From NCBI RefSeq assembly GCF_030028105.1, contig NC_092373.1:147289556-147353555 (forward strand): 64,000 nucleotides of DNA. The letters run 5' to 3'. Each line of letters begins with the position of its first letter. Within the stretch, counting starts at the first letter, position 1. The notes under the pieces are model-generated. The model made no database searches and was not told where the DNA came from. It saw nothing but the letters and a program-made list of their open reading frames with translations. Both the position numbers and the translations under genes were made by a program. This DNA comes from Mobula birostris (taxonomy: Eukaryota). Shown piece by piece: positions 59,877 to 63,980 of this stretch.

Positions 59877-60574
59877 TGTAGCCCCCCTGGCCACCCTCAG
59901 GGTCACTCGGCTCGCTGTCGTCTAGGGAAACAGCCTCGGCCCCGCCAAACTGGGTAATCAGTTTGTGTGGATGCTGTGTGAGGTACCCCACCCCGCCCAA
60001 ATAACAGACCATACACCAGATGCAATTAAATGATGTACAGTTTATAGATATTACTAGAACTATATAATTAAAAGAGAATAAAATATAAAAGGAAAATAAA
60101 AGGCGCCACACTTATCAATGTTCAATCTCTTCGTGCACAAAAAAATCCCGTTGGAGCTCAAGGACCTTCTTCACCCTGCGACCCCCTCGGACCACCTCGA
60201 CCGGCCGCCTGGGATCAACAACGGTGGTCGACCAGATGCTCCACACGAATCTGTCTCCGTCTCCTTGCCGAATATCCCGCTCGGGGTCCGACCCTGTTAG
60301 CGGACTCACAGCACCTCGTCCATCCTCTATCTCGCTCTCCCGCCTTCTGCCCCCAAAACCCCCTCGCAAACAGTATCTTCAAATACACCAAAACCATAAC
60401 AACTATCCTAATTGGTTAATAACGTATTTCTTATCACCCTCTAAACCACAACAAGCCGCTAGCGCAAACTTTCTCAGCGTTTAAGACAACAAAGCCACAT
60501 CCCCCAGATTAACATAACAAAGATGCCATTTTAATTAGCCGCCGCAGTAACATAAAAATCGAAACCTCCTTACA
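59877..60574 (-). repeat. 3' LTR (698 bp)
   Basis: TG...CA termini, preceded on the minus strand by the PPT. About 40 differences from the 5' LTR by manual count. Confidence 0.96.
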
Positions 60575-60590
60575 CTCCCCCCCCCCCACC
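60575..60590 (-). other. Polypurine tract
   Basis: The minus strand has a G-rich tract (GGT-G11-AG) immediately before the 3' LTR. Confidence 0.9.
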
Positions 60591-60845
60591 AAATAAAGTC
60601 ATGTCCTCATGATTTCTAAATAACTCACCACCCAGTCCTATAGACACACAACACACATACACAGATACACACAGTGACAGTGCTCCCCAAACAGTGGACC
60701 TTACTCTCGTCCCACGGGTGCTAAATAGGCCAACCTATGTGGGAGCTTCTTAACCCTCTGAGACCTCCGTACCCCTTCACCTAAACCCAAAAGGCTCAGA
60801 CACTACTAGGGATACCACGGGCCTGCTTGCCAACTCCTCTCTCAC

Positions 60846-61670
60846 TCAGGCCACCACTACAGCTCGGAGCCCCCAGTCCCGTGTCCAGGGCCCCGCCTCT
60901 CCTCCTTTCCAATCCTGCCGCAACTCAGACTGCCCACAGCTATCCCTCCCCACTACACCTGACTCAGTGGGAGAAGGGCCAAAGGTCTCTTCCTCAATCA
61001 CGGAGAAGTTAGCGAAAGGCAGCATGTTCCACATGTGCAGCACATCATCCTTCGAATCCGTATCCTTCCTCATCCCCTCGATCGATAGCTGCTGGTTAAG
61101 TTTCTCCAAACTGAAACATTTAGCCGGGGCTACCCCTTCAGCCTCCTGCAGTTGAGACGTCAGCTTCTTCGGGGACTCCTTCAACTTTCGCCACAGCCTC
61201 AGCAGTTCTGACTCAGGGTTCTTGGCCATCTCAATCTGGGATGCAGTTACCCCACCAGCTGCTTCCTCCCTGACCTGAAAAGCAGCAGTTAAAGGATGTT
61301 CAGCCTCCGGTTGTTTCTTCCTGAGGGCGTTCTCCAGGTCAACGTTCAGTTTTTCCACTTCATTTAAACTCGCGATAGTCACCTTCAGGTTCCTTTCAAG
61401 CGTCCGCCTCCATTTTCCGAGATCTGTCCTCCATTTCTTCACCTCGGGAGTGTAGTCAATCTCCTTTCCCTGGGCTCTCGGTTTTCTATTGACCTTAGTT
61501 AGAACACTTCCTTGATCTTCCTCAACTTGTAAATCTTCCAATCTGTTCTGAATGGACGTCTTGAGTTTCTGCTGATCCCTTTGAAGGTGGGTCATCGTTT
61601 CTTCTCGCTGGATTAATTCATCAGTACATGACCGCAGTGTGGTGCAAATCCCCTCTTCCCTGTGTCTCAT
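60846..61670 (-). CDS. 274-codon chimeric ORF: sarcomeric myosin rod mosaic (aa ~1-198) fused to the Gypsy pol C-terminal tail; expression unknown
   Basis: Supplied ORF. It contains [45 protein letters not shown] and [13 protein letters not shown], each matching myosin II rod motifs. Confidence 0.5.
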
Positions 61671-61790
61671 TCAGATTGACGACCTGGGTTTCCATCCCCC
61701 GGTCCACCACCATCTGTCCCAACACCAGGAAGTTCAACTGGTATGTCGGGTCATTTTCCTCACATTGCACCAAACTCCTCCAGCCAAAAA
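61077..61790 (-). pseudogene. Captured, intron-less sarcomeric myosin heavy-chain rod (S2/LMM) fragment, most similar to MYH16 by eye
   Basis: Collinear matches to recalled MYH motifs: QEKNDL, LDDLQAEEDKVNxLTK, EKKxRxDLERxKRKLEGDLK, RLEEAGGATSxQIEM and KKLAx[39 protein letters not shown] and ELLRL favour MYH16. Confidence 0.85.
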
Positions 61791-61794
61791 CTCC

Positions 61795-62620
61795 TCCACA
61801 TTTGACACTTCGCTTCGGTCGCCCGGGCTCAGTCACTCGCCTCGCCTCATAGTCCCCCCAGGCGAATCCAAGCTCTAGGCGGTCATCCACATACGTCAAA
61901 ACTCCACACACCTTCACTTCCCCCATGGTCTTCCTCATGCCCCGTGGGAAGGATGCAGGAGCTCCGGATATGCCCTTGGGCATCTTTTCGGATCAGAAGA
62001 ATCCTAGGGAACTAGTAAAGGCCATCTTCAGCTCAACAGCCGCACTCCTCAGGATCTGGCAACATCCACCCCTCAGATGCAGCACATTAAACCACATCGC
62101 ATAATCCACACACACGCTGCCTTCATCTCCCATGCCGCTAGGGTCCAGTTGCCGCGACCCCTCTCTCACTGAGGTGTCTTCAGCGGTCAACTCCCCTCCC
62201 TCGTGGTGGTTTGGAGCGTCTACTAAGAGGATCTCACTCTCAGCTACTTTCCCCAAGCCGTACCACCGCTGGGTCTCGTTTAAATTTGGTACTGGCTCAA
62301 GGCTGCTACACACATCCTCAGAAGCAACTCGACACACTGGGTGCCCAGACAATGCCCCCATGAACTCCAGGGTCATTAATCAATCATCGTCTTCTGGATA
62401 ACTACTGCCACTAGTACCCAAAGTCTCCGGTGCCCTTGCGGTTGTCAAGGGTAAATGCTTCAAACACCAGTTGTAAAATGAACTGTACAACAACTTGATC
62501 TGTGCTCCGGGGTCGAGGATAGCTTTAGCATCGCTTCTCTCTATCCATAGCGACACCCTGGGGTGTGGCCCCTCTAGGCCTTCAGGAATAGGGTCTTTTC
62601 CTTTCGGAAGTTCATTGGTA
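61795..62620 (-). pseudogene. Decayed Gypsy protease and N-terminal half of RT
   Basis: [17 protein letters not shown] (aspartic D-T/S-G site), WFNVLHLRGGCCQI (from FSVLDLRSGYYQI), [16 protein letters not shown] and LTYVDD. Confidence 0.9.
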
Positions 62621-62759
62621 CATTGCTGGGAACGTGCTTCCCCAGAGACCCCAAGCCTTTCCCCCACTGGCCTCCACTAAGTTTCTCAATCCCCCTCTGA
62701 TCAGCTGAACAACTGAGGGAGGGGCTGACCCCCTGAAATGATCCCTCTGGCACTACAAG

Positions 62760-63030
62760 CAATTTAGCTGCCCTCCTAGCCAGAGAAGACACACTGAAAA
62801 CATTCCCCCCTCTTTCAAATAACTGACAGCTGTCACTATAGTGTAAGTGAACCTGACAGCTCTAACACCGTCACCAGCCCGCCTACTCAAACTTTCAATC
62901 AATCCCTGTCGCTCTCCCTCAACCGAGCATTGTCACTCATCTAACAACTGAGAGATCTGCTCCGCCCACATCTCACATGCCTCCGCCCCTCTTGGGGTGG
63001 ACACTATCCCAAGTGCCAGGCGGAGCCTGC
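62760..63030 (-). pseudogene. PNMA/Ma-like gag remnant
   Basis: GIVSTPRGAEACEMWAEQISQLLDE followed by [16 protein letters not shown], as in fish Gypsy gag proteins related to PNMA. Confidence 0.75.
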
Positions 63031-63261
63031 CAGAGCTAGAACATTTATTCGCAGACTCTATCTCCAAATCAGACCACTCTTTCCTCTCCCTCCCAACCGC
63101 ATGGACAGCCCCTAGTGCCACCTCCAACTCGTCAATGCCAGCCTGAACTCGAACAAAGACCTCACCCACCACGCATGCAGCAATAATCAGCAAATAACCC
63201 ACAGAGACACACATTACAGATTTAAACAGGGCACCCACACAGCATACCAACAGACTCAAGC

Positions 63262-63280
63262 ATCCCGGACAAAGCCCCCA
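63262..63280 (-). other. Primer-binding site, tRNA-Pro type
   Basis: Minus strand TGGGGGCTTTGTCCGGGAT, 3 nt from the 5' LTR, versus the canonical PBS-Pro TGGGGGCTCGTCCGGGAT. Confidence 0.9.
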
Positions 63281-63283
63281 CAA

Positions 63284-63980
63284 TGTAGCCCCCCCGGCCA
63301 CCCTCAGGGTCGCTCGGCTCGCTGTCGTCTAGGGAAACAGCCTCGGCCCCGCCAAACTGGGTAATCAGTTTGTGTGGACGCTGTGTGATGTACCCCACCC
63401 CGCCCAAATAACGGACAATACACCAGATGCAATTAAATGATTTACAGTTTATAGATATTACTGGAACTATATAACTAACAGAGAATAAAATATAAAAGGA
63501 AAATAAAAGGCGCCACACTTATCAAAGTTCATCTCTTCGTGCACAAAAAAACCCGTTGGCGCTCAAGGACGACCTTCTTCACCCTGCGACCCCCTCGGAC
63601 CACCTCGACCGGCCGCCTGGGACCAACAACGGTGGTCGACCAGATGCTCCACACGAATCCGTCTCCGTCTCCTCGCCGAACGTCTCGCTCGGGGTCCGAC
63701 CCCGTTAGCGGACTCATAGCACCTCATCCATCCTCTGTCTTGCTCTCCCACCTTCTGCCCCAAAACCCCACGCATACAGTATCTTCAAATACACCAAAAC
63801 CATAACGACTATCCCAATTGGTTAATAACGTATTTCTTATCACCCTCTAAACCACAACAAGCTGCTAGCGCAAACTTTCTCAGCGTTTAAGACAACAAAG
63901 CCGCATTCCCCAGATTAACATAACAAAGATGCCATTTTAATTAGCCTCCGCGGTAACATAAAAATCGAAACACCCTTATA
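63284..63980 (-). repeat. 5' LTR (697 bp)
   Basis: Direct repeat of 59877-60574. The outer TG is mutated to TA. The PBS follows it. Confidence 0.96.

What the first reader, a model, noticed from the sequence alone, without database searches (positions are those of the whole stretch)
59877..63980. Gypsy LTR retrotransposon that has captured a spliced myosin heavy-chain (MYH16-like) mRNA fragment
Seen: all cis signals are present (two LTRs, GTGT TSD, PBS-Pro, PPT), and the minus-strand order is gag remnant, protease, RT up to just past YVDD, ~0.7 kb of foreign coiled-coil coding sequence (61790-61077), then a pol C-terminal tail (RRSQRVKKLPHRLAY near 60770-60725). The rest of RT, RNase H and the integrase core are absent. 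Knowledge: the insert matches sarcomeric myosin II rod motifs in the correct order. For example, [16 protein letters not shown] corresponds to LDDLQAEEDKVNx[17 protein letters not shown] to EEAGGATSxQIEM, and [13 protein letters not shown] to LQEAEE..AKCSSLEK. This region spans many exons in MYH genes, yet no intron is present. Inference: a co-packaged host mRNA was captured by template switching during reverse transcription, in sense orientation, as in retroviral oncogene transduction. I do not know of a described myosin-carrying LTR family, but I cannot search to confirm that it is new.
Basis: partly seen in the sequence, partly recalled or inferred. Interest (0 to 1): 0.93.

Follow-up and report, generated by a model that had tools for sequence, protein, structure and literature searches.

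The report
Ray retrotransposon carrying spliced myosin fragment
This is one decayed copy of an abundant, crippled jumping gene of rays that once copied an intron-free piece of a little-known muscle-myosin gene into itself and has spread it since; the capture route is known, but the source gene and the way the element keeps its useless reading frame open look undescribed.

Summary
The capture is real. The element (59877-63980, minus; LTRs, 4-bp TSD, PBS, PPT) belongs to a non-autonomous Gypsy family: 1104 first-look candidates, 40 of 40 scored at 94% or more. Its myosin rod piece (61716-61068) is spliced. I found the donor exons on G000:C28 (18.02-18.20 Mb), and carriers join them exactly across introns of 12.4 and 2.1 kb. 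Both capture junctions show 10-11 of 12 nt microsimilarity, as in Tan et al. 2016.

Three corrections. The donor is not MYH16 (on C11) but a separate MYH16-like gene. The myosin replaced only about 54 nt of an element that had already lost its integrase. The stretch 61790-61717 is RNase H remnant, not myosin.

New here: the lineage leading to this subfamily diverged about 0.18 per site without fixing a stop (about 7 expected, P about 0.001), yet the amino acids drift and prolines break the coiled coil. The frame seems selected, not the protein. Relatives occur in Mobula, Hypanus and Hemitrygon gene models, often named as myosins. The scan noted this family three times before, on other genomes. 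Verdict: new variant of a known kind.

The parts
63981..63984 (.). target-site duplication (GTGT on +), 5' side
   Evidence: 13 of 16 parsed copies have their own 4-bp TSD
63284..63980 (-). 5' LTR (TG decayed to TA ... CA)
63263..63280 (-). primer-binding site, tRNA-Pro type (tRNA identity recalled, not tested against a tRNA gene)
   Evidence: same place in 20 of 20 two-LTR copies
62806..63050 (-). gag remnant, homologous to the PNMA-type gag of older copy L030
   Evidence: 79% nt to L030; L030 frame: PF14893, E 1.8e-22
62362..62660 (-). protease-region remnant (AILDPGAQ; motif reading recalled)
61880..62243 (-). reverse-transcriptase remnants with internal deletions, to YVDD
   Evidence: Pfam RVT_1 only E 0.3 here, E 1.8e-4 in relative P0014
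61717..61778 (-).
   Evidence: 75-76% to L033, L036, L037; the region is PF17917 in L041
61641..61716 (-). myosin piece 1, from the donor exon at C28:18017098-18017325 (rod residues 888-963, P0027 numbering)
61275..61638 (-). myosin piece 2, about residues 968-1103, with one 27-nt deletion; its donor exons were not located
61171..61266 (-). myosin piece 3: end of donor exon C28:18153593-18153679 joined exactly to the start of exon C28:18155800-18156045 (junction 61236/61235)
61068..61170 (-). myosin piece 4, from the first base of the donor exon at C28:18196221 to the 3' switch point in mid-exon
60671..61068 (-). pol (integrase) C-terminal tail, shared with myosin-free relatives; the long frame stops at 60846-60848
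60575..60590 (-). polypurine tract
59877..60574 (-). 3' LTR (TG ... CA)
59873..59876 (.). target-site duplication (GTGT on +), 3' side

Best explanation
An LTR-mediated retrocopy that became a long-lived non-autonomous Gypsy family. Step 1 (shown by junction sharing; order inferred): a Gypsy element with PNMA-type gag lost its integrase core. Step 2 (junctions shown; enzymology inferred): during reverse transcription in a particle supplied by an autonomous relative, RT switched onto a co-packaged spliced mRNA of an MYH16-like gene on C28 and back, at two 12-nt microsimilarities, so that rod residues ~888-1420 replaced about 54 nt just after RNase H, in sense and in frame. Step 3 (shown): the chimera kept LTRs, PBS and PPT, was copied in trans and split into subfamilies with nested deletions; the window holds the most eroded one sampled. 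Step 4 (statistics shown; cause inferred): replicating lineages were selected to keep one long open frame but not its amino acids, most likely because a translated RNA escapes nonsense-mediated decay or is packaged better. The myosin acts as stop-free filler, not as a myosin.
For: Exact exon joins: L030 joins donor exons 1106|1125 (12.4-kb intron) and 1125|1155 (2.1-kb intron); four carriers leave exon 888 exactly at its GT. The donor exon is the best non-self match of L030's 3' myosin piece (96%). Microsimilarity is 10-11 of 12 nt at the 5' switch and 10 of 12 at the 3' switch; myosin-free L039 and L040 have the same integrase-deletion join as the carriers, while L041 keeps the ~1.6-kb region. 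Copies are dispersed with distinct TSDs (13 of 16); 17 of 20 fetched copies align over the whole 4.1 kb. Element copies from Mobula-labelled and Hypanus proteins form one clade (97/94) beside the donor. Frame: 12 of 20 copies have the same 351-codon RT-to-stop length, 6 of 20 have no internal stop, and L014 has a 669-codon frame; the stem of ~0.18 fixed no stop against 6.8 expected, P 0.0012 (simulation 0.0007-0.0027). No protein constraint: dN/dS 0.51-0.68 against 0.57 within young copies and 0.63-0.70 in wrong frames; 6-8 prolines in 12 of 12 copies against 0 in 250 donor residues.
Against: The microsimilarities were not tested against shuffles, and both sequences are GAG-rich. The 5' switch coincides with an exon start, which a splice-mediated capture would also give. 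Only 5 donor exons were located. 12 of 19 compared young copies share a 1-nt loss in a G run near the 5' end of the frame, so the whole frame was not always required. In-frame deletions are partly expected from codon-periodic microhomology (50-75% in myosin). The stem length is an estimate; at 0.08 the 350-codon P rises to 0.03-0.04. The 20 young copies were chosen by likeness to the window. The mobilising partner was not identified. L039 and L040 could be recombinants, which would weaken the order of steps 1 and 2.
Confidence: 0.85

Rival explanations
1. The capture is as described, but the open frame is chance: the myosin is neutral cargo with no selection of any kind (the reading of the earlier scan notes).
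For: dN/dS is at control level; microhomology favours in-frame deletions; a shared 1-nt loss in 12 of 19 copies.
Against: No fixed stop on a ~0.18 stem where 6-7 are expected in 350 codons and 11-12 in 669; private stops do arise on terminal branches (7 in 12 copies). A second subfamily (P0002 type) also holds a 355-codon frame.
Confidence: 0.25
2. The Gag-pol-myosin fusion protein has a function, such as a coiled-coil scaffold, a dominant-negative restrictor of the autonomous partner, or a domesticated gene.
For: Long open frames; many copies are annotated as protein-coding genes; two of four bootstrap intervals of dN/dS exclude 1.
Against: Wrong-frame controls give the same dN/dS; 6-8 prolines were fixed; deletions of 40, 9 and 3 codons break the heptad register; each subfamily keeps different pieces.
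Confidence: 0.1
3. Capture by read-through and splicing: an element in or upstream of the donor gene was spliced onto exon 888, and only the 3' join was a template switch (the classical retroviral transduction model, recalled).
For: The 5' join falls at the start of the donor exon.
Against: The myosin-free relatives have no GT at that join and share 10-11 of 12 nt with the exon start; in this assembly the exon's upstream bases read CAT, not CAG.
Confidence: 0.07
4. A LINE-made processed pseudogene of a myosin gene inserted into a resident LTR element.
For: The insert has no introns; LINEs dominate batoid genomes (passage of bioRxiv 10.64898/2026.10.27.761883).
Against: No poly(A) or TSD at either join, an internal mRNA piece ending in mid-exon, and ~54 nt of the element replaced rather than interrupted.
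Confidence: 0.02

Closest known systems
LTR-mediated retrocopies of animals (Tan et al. 2016, PMC5131818; abstract, passages and section 5 read)
   Same: Partial, intron-free, sense mRNA piece replacing part of the internal region; microsimilarity at both switches; both LTRs kept; further rounds of retroposition.
   Different: Their cases are young, and only two Drosophila retrocopies had more than one insertion site in the section read. Here one capture founded a family with about a thousand or more candidate copies, nested subfamilies and relatives in two ray families, and the recipient was already non-autonomous.
Maize Bs1 and human HERV-K/FAM8A1 captures (seen only as cited in passages of PMC5131818 and PMC7264820)
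   Same: An LTR element carrying transduced cellular coding sequence.
   Different: Different hosts, element groups and cargo; FAM8A1 is described as an untranscribed processed pseudogene. I did not read the primary papers.
Gypsy elements with PNMA-type gag (Barthez lineage in Table 1 of PMC3670739; passages read)
   Same: PF14893 gag in relative L030; order gag, protease, RT, RNase H, integrase tail.
   Different: Integrase core and most of RT are gone. Lineage membership was not tested with an RT tree.
MYH16 (masticatory myosin)
   Same: The donor has the two extra introns that split rod exon 1106-1245 in this genome's MYH16, unlike the other seven sarcomeric loci fetched; MYH16 proteins are the best named hits.
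   Different: Another chromosome (C28, about 0.6 Mb from the fast-myosin cluster), much longer introns, only 38-47% identity in exon 888, and a separate branch with a Narcine protein.

Membership tests
Ty3/Gypsy LTR retrotransposon | Paired LTRs with TG...CA ends and a short TSD | tested here: met
   (13 of 16 parsed copies with a 4-bp TSD; 5 of 21 not parsed)
Ty3/Gypsy LTR retrotransposon | PBS and PPT | tested here: met
   the tRNA-Pro assignment is recalled, and no tRNA gene was compared
Ty3/Gypsy LTR retrotransposon | Order protease, RT, RNase H, integrase | tested here: inconclusive
   gag, RT and RNase H order seen in L030, L033 and L041; the region after RNase H in L041 is decayed and got no Pfam test, so 'integrase' rests on position and recalled motifs
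Barthez lineage | PNMA-type gag | tested here: met
   on L030 (not on the window copy itself)
Barthez lineage | Placement by RT phylogeny | not tested
Autonomous LTR retrotransposon | Complete RT, RNase H and integrase | tested here: not met
LTR-mediated retrocopy (Tan 2016) | Introns absent, partial mRNA, sense orientation | tested here: met
LTR-mediated retrocopy (Tan 2016) | Part of the internal region replaced, microsimilarity at both switches, no poly(A) or TSD | tested here: met
   significance against shuffles not computed
LTR-mediated retrocopy (Tan 2016) | Secondary retroposition | tested here: met
LTR-mediated retrocopy (Tan 2016) | Co-transcription from the LTR | not testable with these tools
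   only contigs of runs guessed to be RNA were available
MYH16 as the donor | Insert closest to this genome's MYH16 exons | tested here: not met
   L030 is 93-95% to four C28 exons and 70-81% to three of four C11 exons tried
MYH16 subfamily (donor gene) | Groups with MYH16 in a rod tree | tested here: inconclusive
   the free tree places it outside MYH16; nesting with chondrichthyan MYH16 is not rejected, p-AU 0.06

The most novel reading that the evidence does not exclude
A protein-dead LTR retrotransposon family has carried a host myosin fragment through at least two ray families while selection kept only its translatability (an open frame without amino-acid constraint). That makes it a natural experiment on RNA surveillance as a filter on non-autonomous elements. 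Its donor is an unrecognised MYH16-like sarcomeric myosin gene of rays.
Probability: 0.5. Interest if true: 0.7.

Novelty: new variant of a known kind. Interest (0 to 1): 0.5.

Why it matters
It is a well-resolved vertebrate case of LTR-mediated gene capture: donor exons, myosin-free relatives, both switch points and a deletion series sit in one genome. If the open-frame result holds genome-wide, it makes directly testable why crippled LTR elements keep reading frames they cannot use. In practice the family contaminates ray annotations: of 20 hit proteins looked up, 7 Mobula or Hypanus models that read as element pieces are named as myosins, which would mislead myosin gene counts. The donor itself may be a missing member of the sarcomeric myosin family. 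Interest is held down because the mechanism is published, the cargo looks non-functional, and the scan has noted the family before.

Tried and rejected
The C28 fast-myosin cluster as donor: it matched one 61-nt piece at 82%, but the C28:18.15-Mb exon matches that piece better (90% over 31 nt in the window copy, 93% over 87 nt in L030). MYH16 on C11 as donor: rejected. Goby P0023 as a closer paralog: it is an ordinary MYH16 model that lacks the same exon as the query. No full-length named ortholog of the donor turned up in two 'longer' protein searches (weak evidence by the tool's own note), and the ESM Atlas gave only generic myosin-tail clusters. The donor-versus-copy dN/dS rows had two exons read out of frame and are not used; one search failed. 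No RNA holder is on record for the element (RNA only guessed). No structure or complex prediction was run, as no binding is claimed. Literature searches listed no paper on a myosin-carrying LTR family: (stingray + retrotransposon + myosin heavy chain) found 0 papers; the mobulid genome preprint has 0 occurrences of 'myosin' or 'MYH' in its main text; the vertebrate myosin preprint 10.1101/2025.10.28.684953 has 0 of 'shark', 'chondrichth' or 'cartilaginous'. Their supplements, subscription journals, Repbase and Dfam could not be seen and may hold the family.
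Full report
1. The observation. The minus strand holds a 4104-nt element, 63980-59877, with LTRs 63980-63284 and 60574-59877 (K2P 0.053), GTGT on both sides, a PBS at 63280 and a PPT at 60590-60575. 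The 274-codon frame 61670-60846 matches myosin-7 residues 974-1092 at E 5e-6, with collinear weaker pieces near 1150-1183 and 1383-1430; all 12 PDB sequences at E<=1 are myosins. Pfam finds no myosin tail in the window copy but does in a less decayed copy (L030, PF01576, E 5.9e-12). The myosin starts at about 61716; 61778-61717 aligns to the RNase H region of older copies.

2. It is one copy of a family. The insert DNA has 1104 first-look candidates in G000 (4.0 Gb); 40 of 40 scored match over the full length at 94% or more. Of 20 copies fetched (the best-ranked ones), 17 align over the whole element at 91-94%, and 3 are truncated. 13 of 16 parsed copies have a perfect 4-bp TSD, each at its own site. 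LTR-LTR K2P is 0.014-0.053, median 0.027 (20 of 21 copies); the window copy is the most diverged. A second subfamily has about 40 more myosin residues (P0002: 4276 candidates, 114 scored). Older, less deleted subfamilies exist. By hand count about 200 distinct loci were scored over; candidates are not copy numbers. Proteins with the same RT-myosin-tail joins are annotated in Mobula birostris, M. hypostoma, Hypanus sabinus and Hemitrygon akajei, so the host is a ray and the family spans two ray families (family assignment recalled).

3. The donor. This genome's MYH16 lies on C11 with 0.6-1.9-kb introns, but the least-decayed carrier (L030) is only 61% identical to MYH16 proteins. A DNA piece deleted in the abundant subfamilies had 16 matches; two are abutting halves 12.4 kb apart on C28 at 95% and 94%. 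They are exons with AG and GT ends, joined exactly in L030. Three more exons lie in order at C28:18017098 (90% to L033), 18155800 (95%) and 18196221 (96%, best non-self match). L030 is 93-95% identical to four of these exons and 70-81% to three of four C11 exons tried. The window copy itself crosses the 2.1-kb intron at 61236/61235 and enters the last exon at its first base, 61170. The donor has the MYH16-type introns at residues 1125 and 1155, which the seven other sarcomeric loci fetched lack. In a 24-row rod tree the donor, Narcine P0019 and four element rows form a clade (100/99), with the element rows as a subclade (97/94), outside MYH16 and outside the MYH15/7B/7/fast group. Nesting with chondrichthyan MYH16 is not rejected (p-AU 0.06), so the donor is an MYH16-like paralog of uncertain age. 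The five exons have no stops. Contigs of runs guessed to be RNA cover exon 888 without difference in 2 of 4 runs, one with other sequence on both sides; this is a hint of a spliced transcript, not proof.

4. The capture. The carriers L033, L034, L036 and L037 keep the original 5' join, just after RNase H. Three myosin-free relatives were fetched. At the 5' join they read GAGTGGGAGAGT (L041) against the donor's GAGCGGGAGAGT, 11 of 12 (10 of 12 in L039 and L040). At the 3' join the element's GAGGAAAAGGAG faces the donor's GAGGTAGAGGAG, 10 of 12, 22 nt before the exon end. Only 53-54 nt lie between the two in L039 and L041. L039 and L040 go from there straight to the integrase tail, at the same join as the carriers, while L041 keeps about 1.6 kb more. 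The simplest order is integrase loss first, then capture by a double template switch. The gap between residues ~1175 and ~1384 is seen in every carrier that retains that part; its 5' side ends in GAGTTGGAGGAG and its 3' side reaches the next located exon after 5 nt that probably come from the preceding, unlocated exon (inferred). Later deletions of 276, 120, 27, 126 and 9 nt give the window's subfamily.

5. Does the cargo do anything? From YVDD to the stop, 12 of 20 copies measure 1053 nt, 14 of 20 a multiple of three, and 6 of 20 have no internal stop; the window copy has private breaks. L014 has a 669-codon frame whose pieces match gag, protease, RT, myosin and tail of older copies as protein. 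Young copies differ from old ones by 0.242, among themselves by 0.031, and old ones among themselves by 0.093, leaving a stem of about 0.18. At the stop rate of terminal branches (7 stops in 12 copies) 6.8 stops are expected on that stem, and none is fixed (P 0.0012). Neutral simulations give P 0.0007-0.0027 for 350 codons and 0 of 1500 for 669 codons; at a stem of 0.08 they give 0.027-0.040 and 0.002-0.006. The residues are not conserved: dN/dS is 0.51-0.68 against old copies, 0.57 within young copies and 0.63-0.70 in wrong frames, and 12 of 12 colinear copies carry 6-8 prolines where the donor has none in 250 residues. Against strict selection: 12 of 19 compared copies share a 1-nt loss in a G run near the 5' end, and microhomology alone makes 50-75% of myosin deletions in frame. 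I put selection on the frame at about 65%, and escape from nonsense-mediated decay or translation-coupled packaging as its likeliest cause (inference from general knowledge; not tested).

6. Comparison with what is known. Tan et al. 2016 (PMC5131818; abstract, passages and section 5 read) describe this anatomy in flies, mosquito, zebrafish, chicken and mammals, including secondary retroposition. Bs1 and FAM8A1 are earlier cases cited there and in PMC7264820 (passages). The gag is PNMA-type, which PMC3670739 (passages) ties to the Barthez lineage. PMC11050549 (passages) notes masticatory myosin in sharks. Ten searches listed no paper on this family; repeat libraries, subscription journals and preprint supplements were not visible. 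The scan's own notes record the family three times in other genomes (a search by sequence found none). They agree on capture, spread and mis-annotation. One of them names MYH16 itself as the source and one says the integrase was swapped for the myosin; my tests here do not support those two points. I read these notes after my own analysis of donor and junctions.

7. Verdict. A real feature and a new variant of a known kind. Capture of a spliced myosin mRNA by this Gypsy family: about 0.95. The full reading given under best explanation, apart from the cause of the open frame: 0.85. Interest 0.5. The most novel reading (selection for translatability alone, plus an unrecognised myosin gene) has probability 0.5 and would merit 0.7. 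Age is given only as divergence: donor to old copies about 5-13% and young insertions about 1.4-5% between LTRs; no rate was measured.

Noticed in passing
G000:C28:18017098-18196355 (L031, L032, L035, L038, L042): An MYH16-like myosin gene distinct from MYH16. Five rod exons were found over 179 kb, all free of stops and ending in GT. It groups with Narcine P0019 ('myosin-6-like'). In run X11 (RNA guessed) a 988-nt contig lies on exon 888 with no difference and continues on other sequence at both sides, as a spliced transcript would.
   Followed up: partly
L035:395-400 and 95-626: The expected splice acceptor of donor exon 888 reads CAT, not CAG. A contig of run X10 covers 95-626 without difference, as if the exon were extended or a first exon. 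The Narcine model skips this exon. Unexplained.
   Followed up: partly
window 61280-61266; proteins P0015, P0016, P0145: The element has an acceptor-like TTTTCAG|GT inside the myosin piece. A Hypanus model named SDHAF3 isoform X1 continues into element sequence at the matching residue, and a model named glutathione S-transferase theta-2 consists of element sequence. These are exonisation or annotation errors.
   Followed up: no
L039, L040: A myosin-free, integrase-deleted sister family; its RNase H end has 1727 first-look candidates.
   Followed up: partly
G000:C16:85153809, C17:52869143, C9:73021819, C8:50532253: Long contiguous myosin-tail matches with stops, possibly processed pseudogenes of non-muscle myosin.
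   Followed up: no
G000:C6:186.6-188.3 Mb; C38:14.9-16.4 Mb: Groups of carriers with near-equal scores, spaced a few hundred kb apart, probably multiplied by segmental duplication rather than by transposition.
   Followed up: no
window 1088-1927, 14417-15307, 30024-30731, 35447-35992, 39825-40307, 54792-55819: The longer ORFs in the rest of the window read as LINE RT fragments, a 30-nt tandem repeat, an integrase fragment and a hAT-like transposase fragment (labels recalled, not scanned). No host gene was seen.
   Followed up: no
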